Position numbers and translations under genes: made by a program
Shown here: piece by piece, positions 1,675-41,730 of the stretch
How positions within the stretch are numbered: position 1 is the first letter of the stretch
Layout: every line of letters begins with the position of its first letter
DNA from: Lawsonibacter sp.
Lineage (GTDB): Bacteria; Bacillota; Clostridia; Oscillospirales; Oscillospiraceae
Assembly (NCBI GenBank): GCA_022794495.1
Contig: JAAWEX010000001.1
Coordinates: 1-42,107, forward strand
Length of the DNA: 42,107 nucleotides
Direction: 5' to 3'
The notes under the pieces: generated by a model
The model's database searches: none
What the model saw: the letters and a program-made list of their open reading frames with translations, nothing else
Told to the model about the DNA's origin: nothing

Positions 1675-1766
1675 CAGAAAAGGGGCCGCAAATATGAATT
1701 GCTTGTGTATTTGGGCCGGTTTATGGTAGGATGAGGGCAGAACAGAAGGACGGGGAGGAAAAATGA

Positions 1767-1794
1767 GAGGGGGCCGCACAGGCGGCCCCCTTCT
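1767..1794. terminator. GC-rich hairpin between the convergent XRE and CBS genes
   Basis: AGGGGGCCGC-ACAG-GCGGCCCCCT inverted repeat. Confidence 0.6.
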
Positions 1795-2223
1795 CTATGG
1801 TATGATGATATTCTCCGAAATCTCGCACAGGGCCTGGGCGGCCTCTATGTCATACCGGCCGCTGCGGGCCAGGTCAGACAGGGAGATCACCCCCACCAGC
1901 TTCCCGTCCTCCACCACCGGCAGGCGGCGGACCTGGTGGAGGGCCATCAGCCGGGTGGCCTCCCGGCAGTCGTCCCCGGGGGTGACGGTGGCACAGGAGC
2001 GGGTCATGATATCACGCACCGGGGTCTGGGCCGGGTCCTCCTCGGCGGCCACGCACCGCAGGACGATGTCCCGGTCGGTGACCATCCCCCGCAGCCGGCG
2101 GTCCGGTGAGCACACGGGCAGCGCCCCCACGTTGTGCCGGCTGATGAGCCGGGCGGCCAGGGCCGCGGAGGAGCCGGGCTCCACCGTTACCGCGCCGGGG
2201 TTCATAAGTTCCTTCACCTGCAT
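1795..2223 (-). CDS. CBS-domain pair protein
   Basis: VGALPV, GMVTDRDIVLR, VRRLPVVEDGKLVGVISLSDLA. Confidence 0.9.
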   Translation of the reverse strand: MQVKELMNPGAVTVEPGSSAALAARLISRHNVGALPVCSPDRRLRGMVTDRDIVLRCVAAEEDPAQTPVRDIMTRSCATVTPGDDCREATRLMALHQVRRLPVVEDGKLVGVISLSDLARSGRYDIEAAQALCEISENIIIP

Positions 2224-2333
2224 GGAAAACCACCCTTTCGGCCAAAATCGGTTTACCGCCAGTCTGCCCGGAAAAGCGGGGGACTATACCCCGGCGCGGG
2301 GGAGAAATTTGCATAAATTGGCAGTCTTTCCCC

Positions 2334-2362
2334 TTGCCAAAGGGGGCAAAGGGTGGTACAAT
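2334..2362 (+). promoter_or_regulatory. sigma70-type promoter for mgtE
   Basis: TTGCCA(2334-2339)-17 nt-TACAAT(2357-2362) with extended -10 TG. Confidence 0.75.
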
Positions 2363-2397
2363 AGCGTAAGATGTAAAGAAAACATAAAAATTGCATC

Positions 2398-2603
2398 GGA
2401 GAGGAAGTGGGACCTGAAATGGAAGGCCGAAGTTGCCAGACAGGCACAAAGGAGAGCTGCCACGAACAGGGGGCGGCGGACCGGGGCCGGAACGGGTCCC
2501 CGCCTCGCCGCCGGTAATCCAGAGGGACCAGCGTCCTTCTCCTTGTCACGTGCAGCCACAGGCCCGCCGCGCCCAAGAGGGGTACGGCGTGCCTGTGGCT
2601 TTT
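2398..2603 (+). promoter_or_regulatory. structured mgtE 5' leader with intrinsic terminator (candidate attenuator/riboswitch)
   Basis: GGAGAGGA(2398-2405) pairs with TCCTTCTCC(2534-2542); GC hairpin at 2472-2512; terminator AGCCACAGGC(2554-2563)/GCCTGTGGCT(2591-2600)+TTT; 32-codon uORF at 2419-2517. Confidence 0.65.
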
Positions 2604-2641
2604 GTGCCTCGCGTTTGAGAAAGCGAGAGGAGGAGAACACA

Positions 2642-3985
2642 ATGCACGATAACTACAACCTGGACCAGCTGATGGAGCTGGTTCAGGAGCGGAAATTCCG
2701 CGCCCTGCGGGAAATTCTAGTGGAAATGAACGAGGTGGACATCGCCGAATTTTTGGATGAGCTGGAGGTAAACCAGGAGATTTTGGTCTTCCGCCTGCTG
2801 CCAAAGGCCATGGCGGCGGAGGTCTTCGCCTATCTGGAGGAGGACCAGGAGAAGCTGATCGGCGCCCTCAGCGACAAGGAGCTGCGCGAGGTGCTGGACG
2901 AGCTGTATCTGGATGACACGGTGGACCTGATCGAGGACCTGCCCGCCAACCTGGTCAGCCGCATCCTGCGCAACACCGACGCCTCCACCCGCAGCCAGAT
3001 CAACCAGCTGCTCAACTACCCCAAGGACTCCGCCGGCTCGCTGATGACCACCGAGTTTGTCTATCTCCACCCCAGCAACACGGTTGAGGAGTCCTTCGCC
3101 CGCATCCGGAAGGTGGGCCTGGACAAGGAGACGGTATATACCTGCTATGTCACCGCTAACCGGGTGCTTCAGGGCGTGGTAACGGTAAAACGGTTGCTCC
3201 TGTCCACCTACGAGACCAAAATCAGCGATATCATGGAGACCAACGTGGTGTCTGTCCCCACCCACGAGGACAAGGAGGAGGTCGCCCAGCTCTTCTCCAA
3301 GTACGACCTCACCGCCCTGCCCGTGGTGGACGGGGAGGACCGGCTGGTGGGCATCATCACCGTGGACGACGCCATGGACGTTATGGAGGAGGAGGCCACC
3401 GAGGACATCGAGAAGATGGCCGCCATCCTGCCCACCGACAAGCCATACTTCCAGACCGGCGTAGTGGAGACCTGGAAGCACCGCATCCCCTGGCTGCTGC
3501 TGCTGATGATCTCCGCCACCTTTACCGGCACCATTCTGGGCTTTTTCGAGGAGGCTCTGGCCGCCAACGCCGCCCTCACCCTGTTCATCCCTATGCTTAT
3601 GGACACCGGAGGCAACTCCGGCGGACAGGCGTCAGTGACCATTATCCGCGCTATGTCCCTGGGGGATGTGGAGTTTGCCGACTGGCTGCGGGTAATCTGG
3701 AAGGAGCTGCGGGTATCTGTCCTGTGCGCCCTCACCCTGGGGGTGGTGGTCTTCGGCAAGGTGATGCTGCTGGACCGAAAGGATGCGACCGTGGCGTCGG
3801 TGGTAGCGCTGACCATCTTCTTTACCATCGTCATCGCCAAGCTCATCGGCTGCACCCTGCCTATGCTGGCCAAGCGCCTGGGCTTCGACCCCGCCGTCAT
3901 GGCCTCCCCCTTTATCACCACCGTGGTGGACGCCCTGTCCCTGCTGGTCTACTTCGCCATCGCCACCCAGATTCTGGGACTATAA
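2642..3985 (+). CDS. mgtE: magnesium transporter MgtE
   Basis: MgtE N domain, CBS pair (SAGSLMTTEFV, GIITVDDAMD) and TM motifs (RIPWLLLLM, MDTGGNSGGQ, DPAVMASPFITTVVD); RBS GAGGAGG before the ATG at 2642. Confidence 0.95.
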   Translation: MHDNYNLDQLMELVQERKFRALREILVEMNEVDIAEFLDELEVNQEILVFRLLPKAMAAEVFAYLEEDQEKLIGALSDKELREVLDELYLDDTVDLIEDLPANLVSRILRNTDASTRSQINQLLNYPKDSAGSLMTTEFVYLHPSNTVEESFARIRKVGLDKETVYTCYVTANRVLQGVVTVKRLLLSTYETKISDIMETNVVSVPTHEDKEEVAQLFSKYDLTALPVVDGEDRLVGIITVDDAMDVMEEEATEDIEKMAAILPTDKPYFQTGVVETWKHRIPWLLLLMISATFTGTILGFFEEALAANAALTLFIPMLMDTGGNSGGQASVTIIRAMSLGDVEFADWLRVIWKELRVSVLCALTLGVVVFGKVMLLDRKDATVASVVALTIFFTIVIAKLIGCTLPMLAKRLGFDPAVMASPFITTVVDALSLLVYFAIATQILGL

Positions 3986-4270
3986 GCGACGCCCCCGGCC
4001 TGAAGCCGGGGGCGCTGTACTGTCAAAAAGCACCCCAGTGCAAAAAGCATACTCAAAAAGCTCTACCTCCTGGATTGCGCCGGCCTGTGCCTGCAAGTCC
4101 TGCATCTCCTCAAATTTCTTGTATTCTTCAGGGGACAACAGTGTTTCAAAATGAGTAACCATCTTGTCAATCTTATCGGTGAGCACAGCAAATTCGGGGT
4201 CGCGTATGCGTCTGCGCTCCCATGGGCTGATATTTCCATAATAAAGTTCGTGTATCATGGATTCCCTCAT
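3980..4270 (-). CDS. small hypothetical protein, DUF6809-like
   Basis: MIHELYYGNISPWE...LLSPEE...ELFEYAFCTGV pattern typical of this Clostridial family; RBS AAAGGGGG; C-terminus runs into the mgtE terminator. Confidence 0.6.
   Translation of the reverse strand: MRESMIHELYYGNISPWERRRIRDPEFAVLTDKIDKMVTHFETLLSPEEYKKFEEMQDLQAQAGAIQEVELFEYAFCTGVLFDSTAPPASGRGRRL
3988..4015. terminator. terminator hairpin after mgtE
   Basis: CGCCCCCGGC-CTGAA-GCCGGGGGCG. Confidence 0.7.
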
Positions 4271-4350
4271 GGCCCATCCCCCTTTCTATTGCAGGGCCTT
4301 TCCAGAATATTTTCCACGTTTAAACCGTCCTTTCTTTTTTCCGATATTGC

Positions 4351-4462
4351 TTGAAAGGAAAGCTGACGCATGGTATAATATTTACGTCGCTTTTGCCTTT
4401 TGGCAATAGTCGGATGAGGAAGTGGCGTGTTTCTTTGATCGGTGGGCGCCACTTCCTTCTAT
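4351..4462 (+). ncRNA. candidate antisense sRNA (promoter plus terminator) in RHH cassette 1
   Basis: TTGAAA(4351-4356)-17-TGG TATAAT(4374-4379), then hairpin AGGAAGTGGCG...CGCCACTTCCT followed by TCTATTT. Confidence 0.55.
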
Positions 4463-4638
4463 TTCCCCTCGAGGTCGTCGTGTACCTTATGGACACCACG
4501 CCTGACTATTTCCGCCTTTGATACTTCGAGTTTTTTAGCACACTCGTCCAGCCTTTCGGCTGTTTCTTTATCAAGGCGGACTTTCAGGGAAATGTCTTTG
4601 GGATTATCGGTAGGACGACCCATTTTTTTACTCCCCAA
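4459..4638 (-). CDS. CopG/Arc-like ribbon-helix-helix protein
   Basis: KKMGRPTDNPKDISLKVRLDKETAERLDECAKKLEVSKAEIVRRGV; RBS GAGGTG before a TTG; start codon uncertain. Confidence 0.7.
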   Translation of the reverse strand: MGSKKMGRPTDNPKDISLKVRLDKETAERLDECAKKLEVSKAEIVRRGVHKVHDDLEGK

Positions 4639-4659
4639 TATCATCACCTCACTTTTTGG

Positions 4660-4698
4660 GGTCGCTTATATTATAACTTACCGACGCCGTTAAGTCAA
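4660..4698 (-). promoter_or_regulatory. sigma70 promoter of RHH cassette 1 with imperfect inverted-repeat operator
   Basis: Minus strand TTGACT-17-TATAAT; GGCGTCGGTAA and TAAGCGACCCC flank the -10 as an imperfect inverted repeat. Confidence 0.7.
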
Positions 4699-4750
4699 GG
4701 GGATTTGAGAAAAAAGACGGCCCCCGGCGTAAACCGGAGGCCGTTTCCGC

Positions 4751-5520: not shown

Positions 5521-5596
5521 GCTGGTGTAGCTCAGCCGGTAGAGCAGCTGATTTGTAATCAGCAGGTCGGGGGTTCGAATCCGTCCACCAGCTCCA
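5521..5596 (+). tRNA. tRNA-Thr(TGT)
   Basis: 76-nt cloverleaf, GCTGGTG/CACCAGC acceptor stem, anticodon loop TTTGTAA, GGTTCGAATCC, encoded CCA. Confidence 0.97.
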
Positions 5597-5736: not shown

Positions 5737-5821
5737 GGAGGAGTTCCCGAGTGGCCAAAGGGGGCAGACTGTAAATCTGTTGCGTTTTGCTTCGGTGGTT
5801 CGAATCCACCCTCCTCCACCA
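5737..5821 (+). tRNA. tRNA-Tyr(GTA)
   Basis: 85 nt with long variable arm, GGAGGAG/CTCCTCC acceptor stem, anticodon loop CTGTAAA, encoded CCA. Confidence 0.97.
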
Positions 5822-8030: not shown

Positions 8031-8107
8031 CTGTAGGGGGCGGCCTCCGGGCCGCCCCGAGTTGTTCCCTTGCTGTCGCGGGGCGGCGCAGAGACCGCCC
8101 CCTACAG
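8031..8107. repeat. GTAG-type REP doublet (REPIN-like)
   Basis: 13-bp terminal inverted repeat CTGTAGGGGGCGG/CCGCCCCCTACAG, each end with its own GC hairpin. Confidence 0.65.
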
Positions 8108-17456: not shown

Positions 17457-17498
17457 TTTGTAATCAGCAGGTCGGAGGTTCGAATCCGCCCTCCTCCA
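17457..17498 (+). repeat. att-like partial tRNA direct repeat (Thr/Tyr chimera)
   Basis: 17457-17488 matches tRNA-Thr 5552-5583 at 31/32 nt; 17477-17498 matches the tRNA-Tyr 3' end at 21/22 nt. Confidence 0.8.
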
Positions 17499-17573
17499 CG
17501 CCGCGGCGGCGTGGAAGCCCAGAAAAAACAGCTCCCCGGCCTTTAGGCGGGGAGCTTGCTTGTAATCACAGGC

Positions 17574-18067: not shown

Positions 18068-18331
18068 CTAAAATAATTGTGAATTTTTTGGGGCGTGGAA
18101 AATGGCCGGACATCCCCCCATTGATTGCCGCACCGTGTCCAGACAGCAATCCAGCTGCTTTCGGAGGATTTTGTCGGAATCGGACAGATATTCGCAGATC
18201 GCGTCTAACCCATCCACATCGGGGTCCACCGCCTGGTCCAGCCCTCTGGAAATCAGAAACACCGCGTGGATACCCCTGGAGATTCGGTTCACTGTCACAT
18301 CCAAATCAAGTAATTGTTCCTGTAACGTCAT
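18068..18331 (-). CDS. small hypothetical helical protein (cargo of RHH cassette 2)
   Basis: 87 aa with strong RBS AAGGAGG. Confidence 0.65.
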   Translation of the reverse strand: MTLQEQLLDLDVTVNRISRGIHAVFLISRGLDQAVDPDVDGLDAICEYLSDSDKILRKQLDCCLDTVRQSMGGCPAIFHAPKNSQLF

Positions 18332-18341
18332 GATTTCCTCC

Positions 18342-18447
18342 TTGATTTTTCCCCGGAGGTATGGCATAATCAGATTTGTCATTCCTCCGGGGATGGTGTT
18401 TTAGAGTGTTGGCGGCTTTGCTAGGGGTGCCAGCACTCTATTTTTTC
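18342..18447 (+). ncRNA. candidate antisense sRNA (promoter plus terminator) in RHH cassette 2
   Basis: TTGATT(18342-18347)-17-TGG CATAAT(18365-18370), then AGAGTGTTGGC...GCCAGCACTCT hairpin followed by a T tract. Confidence 0.55.
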
Positions 18448-18614
18448 ATGTCCTGCTCCACAAGATCAATTCCCTTTTCAATTACCTGTGTTCGGGATAC
18501 ACCAAGCGTATCTGCGCAGCGCTGCAATTTGGCCGCTGTCTCTTTGGTCAACCGCAGTCCAAGATTGACGCTTTTGGTAATCTCCTTGTGGGGCCGGCCT
18601 GTACGCGGAGACAT
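18438..18614 (-). CDS. CopG/Arc-like ribbon-helix-helix protein (not in the ORF track)
   Basis: Hand translation MSPRTGRPHKEITKSVNLGLRLTKETAAKLQRCADTLGVSRTQVIEKGIDLVEQDMKK (58 aa); RBS GAGGTG. Confidence 0.75.
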   Translation of the reverse strand: MSPRTGRPHKEITKSVNLGLRLTKETAAKLQRCADTLGVSRTQVIEKGIDLVEQDMKK

Positions 18615-18630
18615 TCCATCACCTCACTTC

Positions 18631-18673
18631 TTGCTCCAGCAATAATTATAATCTTGCTCGGGCAAAAAGTCAA
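18631..18673 (-). promoter_or_regulatory. sigma70 promoter of RHH cassette 2 with two TTGC-N4-GCAA operators
   Basis: Minus strand TTGACT-17-TATAAT; TTGCTCCAGCAA and TTGCTCGGGCAA flank the -10. Confidence 0.75.
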
Positions 18674-18861: not shown

Positions 18862-18941
18862 GTAGGGGCCGCCGCCCTCGGCGGCCCGCCAAAACGCAAT
18901 GTCTCCCCTAGTTTCGGGCCGCCCAGGGTGGCGGCCCCTAC
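18862..18941. repeat. GTAG-type REP doublet (REPIN-like)
   Basis: GTAGGGGCCGCC/GGCGGCCCCTAC terminal inverted repeat with internal hairpins. Confidence 0.65.
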
Positions 18942-20499: not shown

Positions 20500-20575
20500 G
20501 GACGATTAGCTCAGCTGGTAGAGCATCCGCTTGACGTGCGGGAGGTCACAGGTTCAAGTCCTGTATCGTCCACCA
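20500..20575 (+). tRNA. tRNA-Val(GAC)
   Basis: GGACGAT/ATCGTCC acceptor stem, anticodon loop TTGACGT, GGTTCAAGTCC, encoded CCA. Confidence 0.96.
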
Positions 20576-41660: not shown

Positions 41661-41730
41661 TGTAGGGGCCGGCACCCTCGCCGGCCTGGAGCATCCAATC
41701 AGAGCGGGCCGCCGTCTTCGGCGGCCCCTA
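41661..41730. repeat. GTAG-type REP doublet in the GSIII leader
   Basis: GTAGGGGCCG...CGGCCCCTA termini with internal hairpins. Confidence 0.6.

What the first reader, a model, noticed from the sequence alone, without database searches (positions are those of the whole stretch)
3980..4698. RHH repressor / antisense sRNA / small cargo cassette, copy 1
Seen, reading the minus strand: a consensus promoter whose -10 is flanked by an imperfect inverted repeat, then AGTGAGGTGAT RBS, a roughly 60-aa GRP-containing RHH gene, a hairpin with CAAAG in its loop, an oppositely oriented extended -10 promoter (4351-4379) that would make a roughly 75-nt antisense RNA ending at that hairpin, a 16-codon uORF (4267-4317) overlapping ATGA, and the DUF6809-like gene. 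Known: this two-layer logic matches pMV158 copG-rnaII-repB and phage P22 arc-sar-ant. Inference: this is a stand-alone chromosomal cassette with no rep or phage genes that tightly silences a small cargo protein. It could be an undescribed TA-like, defence or minimal selfish module.
Basis: partly seen in the sequence, partly recalled or inferred. Interest (0 to 1): 0.78.

Follow-up and report, generated by a model that had tools for sequence, protein, structure and literature searches.

The report
Orphan phage-type repressor-antisense RNA cassette
This is a damaged chromosomal copy of a small gene-silencing cassette that is widespread in gut Clostridia and in phages of Firmicutes and Fusobacteria, in which a tiny repressor and a predicted antisense RNA likely keep a downstream gene switched off; phage copies often guard antirepressor genes, while this genome carries seven copies, mostly beside ordinary host genes.

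Summary
The anatomy is real and confirmed in independent assemblies. It is not a one-off module: this genome holds 7 copies. A reverse promoter at a fixed distance follows 60 of 74 repressor genes in the genus (controls 2 of 74 and 2 of 71), 21 of 29 across Clostridia and 12 of 15 in phages, and the leader helices covary. In phages the gene behind it is often an antirepressor, so the unit works like P22 arc-sar-ant. The leader fits a pT181-type pre-emptor/ribosome-site switch (inferred; the second conformation is only partly supported).

Two corrections. The '16-codon uORF' is the in-frame remnant of a 90-codon first DUF6809 gene. The DUF6809 gene has lost its last 11 codons at 4029, while a 98.8% identical copy elsewhere is whole and follows a serine recombinase.

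No antisense transcript could be shown, cargo function is unknown, and toxicity is unsupported. No paper was found in the searches made. The scan's earlier notes report the same cassette family on other DNA, mostly phages. New here: many orphan chromosomal copies under purifying selection, with swapped modules.

The parts
4670..4698 (-). Sigma-A-type promoter of the cassette (TTGACT-17-TATAAT); predicted start near 4663
   Evidence: a forward promoter of score >=10 in 66 of 74 homologues; identity to L125/L126 begins exactly at 4698
4658..4688 (.). Imperfect inverted repeat around the -10 (arms 4680-4688 and 4658-4666), likely RHH operator
   Evidence: 7 of 9 pairs here; >=7 of 9 in 44 of 65 homologues, mean 6.9 vs 5.6 shuffled; half-sites differ with RHH subtype. 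Binding not tested.
4643..4653 (-). Ribosome-binding site of the RHH gene
   Evidence: sequence
4459..4647 (-). RHH (CopG-family, GRP-motif) repressor gene; likely start TTG 4638
   Evidence: Pfam RHH_1; PHROG 876; alignment A2
4416..4459 (.). Hairpin 1: terminator hairpin of the predicted antisense RNA, variable loop (CAAAG on the mRNA side)
   Evidence: 89.5% of cells paired, 8 of 10 pairs with changes on both sides in 26 sequences
4386..4465 (+). Predicted antisense RNA, about 75-80 nt, two hairpins
   Evidence: promoter and hairpin conservation; fold z -4.55; no Rfam family; transcript not shown
4351..4379 (+). Extended -10 promoter for the antisense RNA (TTGAAA-17-TG-TATAAT)
   Evidence: conserved at fixed distance in homologues
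4341..4413 (-). mRNA leader structure: outer stem (4403-4413 with 4341-4350), small hairpin, inner stem (4383-4390 with 4362-4370); its 5' arms are covered by the antisense RNA
   Evidence: covariation: 23 of 27 pairs of the whole structure with changes on both sides, 0 of 500 shuffles; G-U pairs on the sense strand point to the mRNA
4353..4359 (-). Predicted anti-Shine-Dalgarno segment (overlaps the -35 of the reverse promoter)
   Evidence: folding with the antisense-covered region blocked; covariation not significant
4328..4334 (-). Shine-Dalgarno GAAAGGA of the first cargo gene
   Evidence: sequence; conserved in the subfamily
4267..4317 (-). 16-codon in-frame remnant of a first DUF6809 gene (90 codons in relatives), still coupled by ATGA
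3980..4270 (-). Second DUF6809 gene; native sequence ends at 4029, last 11 codons replaced by 15 read from the mgtE terminator region
   Evidence: whole end seen in L126 and as a loose end in run X5
3987..4019 (.). Host hairpin after mgtE; left flank
   Evidence: one such hairpin at the empty sites of G002 and G005
4717..4744 (-). Terminator of the host sigma-70 region-4 gene; right flank, insulates the cassette promoter

Best explanation
This is a chromosomal, damaged copy of a likely phage- or mobile-element-derived control cassette in which an RHH protein likely represses its own promoter and a predicted 75-80-nt antisense RNA likely blocks translation of the downstream cargo by refolding the mRNA leader. 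Shown: the parts, their conservation, the covarying leader helices, the antirepressor cargo in phage copies, and the damage to both DUF6809 genes here. Inferred: without the RNA, the 5' arms of the leader hold the anti-SD segment and the ribosome site is open; with the RNA bound, the freed segment pairs with the ribosome site (pT181-type pre-emptor switch; in streptococcal phage copies the same stem ends in a U run and would terminate). Such a unit would give a short burst of cargo when it enters a cell lacking repressor and RNA, then silence itself. The DUF6809 proteins fill the slot of Bro-N, ORF6N or Rha antirepressors and most likely act as small protein-binding establishment factors of a mobile element (weak inference). 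In this copy repressor and RNA gene are intact and the cargo is likely inactive.
For: Reverse promoter >=10 points in 60 of 74 genus loci vs 2 of 74 sense and 2 of 71 distal controls; 55 of 70 genus, 20 of 21 DUF6809-type, 21 of 29 class-wide and 12 of 15 phage loci, sense controls 0, 0, 1, 0. Leader covariation 0 of 500 shuffles on four of five measures (8 of 500 on the fifth) in the window's subfamily and 0-1 of 500 on all five in the genus type. The 3' arm pairs with the antisense-covered arm in 11 of 12 phage, 18 of 20 DUF-type, 15 of 21 class and 49 of 55 genus loci, and with the downstream RBS region in 9 of 12 phage and 8 of 20 DUF-type loci vs 0 and 0 for a distal control. SD unpaired 0.97 free vs 0.00 blocked in this copy; 14 of 26 down, 0 up in its subfamily. 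Antirepressor cargo: phiCD211, phiFN37, Javan489, Funu2, Javan367, five class-wide loci, own contig C50. Hairpin 1 of phage scaffold L257 closely matches that of chromosomal copies. Damage.
Against: No strand-resolved RNA data; the antisense RNA is not shown. The anti-SD:SD helix has no significant covariation, and the anti-SD overlaps the reverse -35 box, so the match could be a by-product. Downstream pairing is not enriched in the genus type (5 of 55 vs 9 of 55; redone with the whole SD 15 of 58 vs 5 of 58) and weak class-wide (5 of 21 vs 2 of 21). A control blocking only the first 48 nt also closed the SD in 7 of 26 loci, this one included. The window's DUF6809 subfamily was not found in viral contigs or PHROGs. 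Orphan cargo is under purifying selection (dN/dS 0.17 on 10 pairs), so orphans in general are not simply dead. Kin are not independent, so all counts overstate.
Confidence: 0.6

Rival explanations
1. A type I toxin-antitoxin-like addiction module: the cargo is toxic and the antisense RNA is its antitoxin; this copy has been disarmed.
For: Patchy, multi-copy, behind housekeeping genes. Purifying selection. Of 55 intact family-A cargo genes behind this RHH, none lacks the reverse promoter, while repressor and RNA often outlast the cargo. The lost end of DUF6809 is its most hydrophobic conserved part. Some Ant-domain proteins are toxic (PMC2701414 passage).
Against: Intact family-A cargo occurs without the linker in 7 of 94 scored loci (read by eye), behind a divergent Arc-like or XRE gene in the 5 of these that were scanned. 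The slot also holds antirepressors, an HNH nuclease and an excisionase-like gene. No PADLOC hit. DUF6809 is charge-rich and 90 aa, unlike a small membrane toxin.
Confidence: 0.17
2. The host keeps orphan cassettes as a library of repressor and antisense specificities that silence matching cassettes of incoming phages or mobile elements in trans.
For: 7 copies in a 70%-complete genome, with different operators among those analysed; three hairpin-1 types among five purD-linked copies; tandem arrays where only the last unit has cargo; RHH dN/dS 0.08; shared hairpin type with a phage.
Against: No matched phage target was identified for this copy; 54 of 74 orphans keep intact cargo of three families, which a pure decoy would not need; many genomes of the genus have no hit (29 of 95 positive).
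Confidence: 0.12
3. The cassette is the end module of a serine-recombinase integrative element, and the window holds what is left after the element was deleted.
For: L125 and L126 carry a 587-aa recombinase (Resolvase, Recombinase, DUF4368) ending about 220 nt before the -35, are 99.9% identical over 1903 nt, and have different 3' flanks. L131 lies behind a MobA relaxase.
Against: The 9 nt before the window's -35 match those of the G462 cassette, so the window looks like the unoccupied state and the element like a later insertion at the promoter; L125 may be an assembly chimera; most DUF6809-type copies lie between host-like genes.
Confidence: 0.1
4. Same parts, but control is by convergent transcription or by direct decay of the duplex, not by leader refolding.
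For: The two promoters face each other 290 nt apart; such interference is known for pIP501 (PMC5703833 passage); the second conformation lacks covariation.
Against: The leader helices covary with G-U pairs valid on the mRNA strand, and their 3' arms lie outside the antisense RNA.
Confidence: 0.15

Closest known systems
Phage P22 immunity I region (mnt, arc, sar, ant; 'ant moron')
   Same: RHH repressor gene, antisense RNA gene and effector gene in one unit; homologous cassettes guard antirepressors and sit inside phage morphogenesis regions; high flux and degraded copies (PMC2629481 passages).
   Different: No mnt-like divergent gene, no ant gene in this copy, no Pfam Arc or Rfam match; the RNA does not cover the ribosome site, whereas sar does (recalled); found as chromosomal orphans in Clostridia.
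pMV158 copG-rnaII-repB
   Same: CopG-family RHH plus countertranscript inhibiting translation of the second gene (PMC4485353 abstract).
   Different: No rep gene; RNAII has one hairpin, this RNA is predicted to have two; no ctRNA family at threshold.
pT181 RNAI / pIP501 RNAIII antisense attenuation
   Same: Pre-emptor arm competes with a stem that holds the ribosome site (PMC5703833 passages); same geometry here, with U runs in streptococcal phage copies.
   Different: Sits between two cistrons behind an RHH gene, controls no replication; this copy has no terminator-like U run at the second stem.
Type I toxin-antitoxin systems
   Same: Small gene silenced by a cis-encoded antisense RNA, scattered chromosomal copies.
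   Different: Co-transcribed repressor, exchangeable cargo, no toxin family match.

Membership tests
P22 immI (arc-sar-ant) | RHH repressor gene first in the operon | tested here: met
   Pfam RHH_1, PHROG 876
P22 immI (arc-sar-ant) | Repressor binds the operator of its own promoter | not testable with these tools
   inverted repeats that differ with RHH subtype are suggestive only
P22 immI (arc-sar-ant) | Antisense RNA made between repressor and effector gene | tested here: inconclusive
   promoter and hairpin conserved; contigs cannot show strand
P22 immI (arc-sar-ant) | Antirepressor gene downstream | tested here: not met
   DUF6809 in this copy; met in homologues
P22 immI (arc-sar-ant) | Divergent second repressor (mnt) and prophage location | tested here: not met
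   upstream is a host terminator and sigma-70 region-4 gene; no phage gene among window proteins scanned
pMV158 copG-rnaII-repB | CopG-family RHH | tested here: met
pMV158 copG-rnaII-repB | Replication initiator as second gene | tested here: not met
   cargo is DUF6809
pMV158 copG-rnaII-repB | ctRNA family match | tested here: not met
   best Rfam rows are far below threshold; the ctRNA_pGA1 row (19.6 of 45 bits) lies on the host terminator
pT181-type antisense attenuator | Pre-emptor helix covered by the antisense RNA | tested here: met
pT181-type antisense attenuator | Alternative stem holding the ribosome site | tested here: inconclusive
   folds here, enriched in phage and DUF-type copies, no covariation
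pT181-type antisense attenuator | Alternative stem is an intrinsic terminator | tested here: not met
   no terminator-like site there in this copy; U runs seen in streptococcal phage copies
Type I toxin-antitoxin | Cargo is toxic | not testable with these tools
   no family match
Type I toxin-antitoxin | Toxin gene always linked to its antisense RNA | tested here: inconclusive
   family-A cargo lacks the linker in 7 of 94 loci; 11 of 15 distant DUF6809 loci had no RHH hit

The most novel reading that the evidence does not exclude
Gut Oscillospiraceae have domesticated phage antirepressor-control cassettes into a dispersed, recombining library of repressor/operator and antisense specificities parked behind housekeeping terminators. 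These either silence matching cassettes of incoming phages and integrative elements in trans, or release a small effector when an invader titrates the repressor or RNA: an undescribed two-layer sentinel system.
Probability: 0.13. Interest if true: 0.8.

Novelty: new variant of a known kind. Interest (0 to 1): 0.5.

Why it matters
It points to an uncatalogued antisense-RNA family (no Rfam match) and a Gram-positive counterpart of P22 arc-sar-ant that joins an RHH repressor to a pT181-like leader switch. The unit is present in cultured phages (phiCD211, Funu2) and in many copies in gut Clostridia chromosomes, so it is testable with simple reporters. The natural set of repressor/operator and RNA variants could also supply orthogonal switches for Firmicutes. 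This particular copy is a damaged member and matters mainly as a snapshot of how the cassettes move and decay.

Tried and rejected
Rfam: no family at threshold for this region or ten homologous loci; SR6 and ctRNA rows are at chance level. Viral-contig scans with the RHH, a linker pattern and the DUF6809 alignment found nothing; these scans need near-exact words, and tblastn on annotated phages did find 30 records. The RHH alignment was too diverged for a contig scan. Fusion of cargo to longer proteins: none found, weak evidence. The DUF6809 model is low-confidence (pLDDT 68.5, pTM 0.37); Foldseek gave nothing and VIA-align only generic helices at Z about 5. Atlas: only DUF6809 clusters; family-A cargo only leads under 0.9. 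Family-A cargo is not detectably related to DUF6809 or to the Javan489 small gene, and weakly to the gene before a Bro-N/KilAC gene in L217 (probability 45%). RHH-DUF6809 complex prediction returned no verdict. RNA runs gave contigs only: two of four end near the predicted mRNA start (4644, 4641), two run on; a weak hint that says nothing about strand. Target-site duplication of the terminator was considered: the two flanking hairpins resemble the single one at empty sites but are not identical, left open. A regulatory leader peptide was rejected because the ORF is a gene remnant. The paper on sar structure was not held.

Full report
Observation. Reading the minus strand from 4698: a promoter (11 of 12), an imperfect inverted repeat, an RBS, an RHH gene, a hairpin, a reverse extended -10 promoter (11 of 12), a 16-codon ORF and a DUF6809 gene. 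Contigs of runs X17, X18 and X20, from three studies, cover the unit and both junctions without differences. The host is likely a mouse-gut member of the Oscillospiraceae; this is inferred from run labels and names of homologues.

Site. The unit lies between the converging ends of mgtE and a sigma-70 region-4 gene. In G002 and G005 the two genes are separated by a single hairpin; in G003, G004, G016, G019, G021 and G024 unrelated inserts of about 1.8 to 4.2 kb fill the gap. At DNA level only 4 of 111 other genomes of the genus match the cassette at all, each in short pieces, so this subtype is likely a horizontal arrival.

Family. The RHH has 87 matches in 29 of 95 genomes of the genus. I fetched most and analysed 74 distinct ORFs. 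A reverse promoter scoring at least 10 follows 60 of 74, nearly all 61-88 nt after the stop (range 51-99), against 2 of 74 and 2 of 71 in controls. Class-wide 20 of 201 genomes match and 21 of 29 loci carry the promoter. This genome holds 7 linker-bearing copies. The linker is the constant part: it also follows other small regulators. Cargo varies: 39 intact family-A, 11 family-B and 4 family-C genes, 3 broken family-A, and 17 with other, broken or no cargo among the 74. Flanks identified are housekeeping genes such as purD (5 loci), yifB, prfB and addA (14 of 49 proteins got a name at the strict cut-off), and a hairpin lies within 60 nt before the -35 in 35 of 64 loci vs 13 in a control.

Phage link. 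The RHH belongs to PHROG 876 and hits 30 phage records. Of 15 fetched, 12 have the reverse promoter. An antirepressor follows directly or after one small gene in phiCD211, phiFN37, Javan489, Funu2 and Javan367; in Javan52, Javan751, Javan53 and Javan443 the next gene is hypothetical, and phiHugo lacks the linker. Five class-wide loci carry Bro-N or ORF6N cargo and six carry DUF6809; contig C50 of this genome carries Bro-N. This is the layout of the P22 ant moron (PMC2629481, passages seen).

RNA mechanism. In 26 members of the window's subfamily, four helices show changes on both sides in 23 of 27 pairs, 0 of 500 shuffles, with slid controls near 40% paired vs 83%; the shorter genus type gives the same result. 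G-U pairs valid only on the sense strand place the leader helices on the mRNA. The predicted antisense RNA covers their 5' arms but not the ribosome site. Blocking that region closes the SD in this copy (0.97 to 0.00 unpaired) and in 14 of 26 subfamily members, with none opening. The freed arm pairs with the downstream region in 9 of 12 phage and 8 of 20 DUF-type loci, with 0 in distal controls. This matches the pre-emptor and stem-loop IV of pT181 (PMC5703833, passages seen). Against: that helix shows no significant covariation, is not enriched in the genus type in the first test (5 of 55) and only modestly on redoing it (15 of 58), overlaps the reverse -35, and a partial-block control also closes the SD in 7 of 26. 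Over 65 genus loci folding gave 21 down and 4 up. No transcript was shown; RNA runs gave unstranded contigs only.

Damage. The 16-codon ORF begins and ends like a 90-codon DUF6809 gene in relatives. Lengths of 273, 210, 144 and 51 nt in different lineages all keep the frame to the ATGA overlap, so the remnant likely still serves translational coupling. The second gene leaves the family sequence at 4029; L126, 98.8% identical over 673 nt, has the whole end. In L125 and L126 a large serine recombinase element abuts the -35 exactly; the window's flank resembles that of another cassette, so the element more likely targets the promoter than carries the cassette. An RNA-library contig joins mgtE to 4370, a form without cargo.

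Function of cargo. Unknown: no PADLOC or PHROG hit, no informative fold. Orphan cargo and RHH genes are under purifying selection (dN/dS 0.17 on 10 pairs and 0.08 on 25 pairs, crude estimate). Family-A cargo without the linker in 7 of 94 loci argues against a strict RNA-antitoxin dependence. I rank a burst-then-silence establishment module first, addiction second, and an immunity library third.

Literature. No paper holds 'DUF6809'; combined searches found none describing the unit or only general reviews and P22-type papers. Seen: PMC2701414 passages, PMC2629481 passages, PMC4485353 abstract and outline, PMC5703833 passages. Subscription journals and supplements of large structured-RNA surveys were not searched and could list this motif. 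Earlier AI notes of this scan describe the same family on other DNA; they are not independent support.

Verdict. Real, undescribed in the literature searched, a new variant of the arc-sar-ant / cop-antisense-rep kind; this copy is a damaged orphan. Interest 0.5.

Noticed in passing
window 18068-18672 (minus strand): Second cassette: promoter, RHH 18438-18614 (40% identical to copy 1), genus-type linker, family-A cargo 18068-18328 with an extended C-terminus; a different operator.
   Followed up: partly
G000 contigs C50, C111, C112, C162, C180, C25: Five more linker-bearing copies; C50 has a 127-aa gene and a Bro-N gene, C111 has no cargo and lies between two similar terminator hairpins; C25 has family-A cargo behind a divergent Arc gene without linker.
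   Followed up: partly
L125:91-2072 and L126:1-1233: A DUF4368-type large serine recombinase element ends exactly at the cassette's -35 box, which may be its attachment site.
   Followed up: partly
L127, L128, L129, L135, L141, L237, L052, L094: Tandem arrays of two or three RHH-linker units with different repressors, in most cases with cargo only after the last unit (L094 has cargo after both).
   Followed up: no
L034, L036, L038, L040, L045: Cassettes at the purD 3' end in five genomes share the site but carry three hairpin-1 types and different operators, suggesting module exchange.
   Followed up: partly
L023-L028 (mgtE to sigma-r4 gap): Insertion hotspot holding unrelated small gene sets, several with signal-peptide-like starts plus PadR or XRE regulators.
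   Followed up: no
window 1763-3985: The 740-aa ORF overstates mgtE; the MgtE domains start near residue 322 and a CBS-domain gene lies on the opposite strand at 1795-2223.
   Followed up: no
window 8031-8107, 18862-18941, 41661-41730: REP-like GC-rich inverted repeats starting GTAGGGG recur in the window and after the whole DUF6809 gene in L126.
   Followed up: no
window 5521-5596, 5737-5821, 17457-17499, 20500-20575: tRNA-Thr, tRNA-Tyr and tRNA-Val genes; a partial duplicate of the tRNA 3' half at 17457-17499 may mark an old integration.
   Followed up: no
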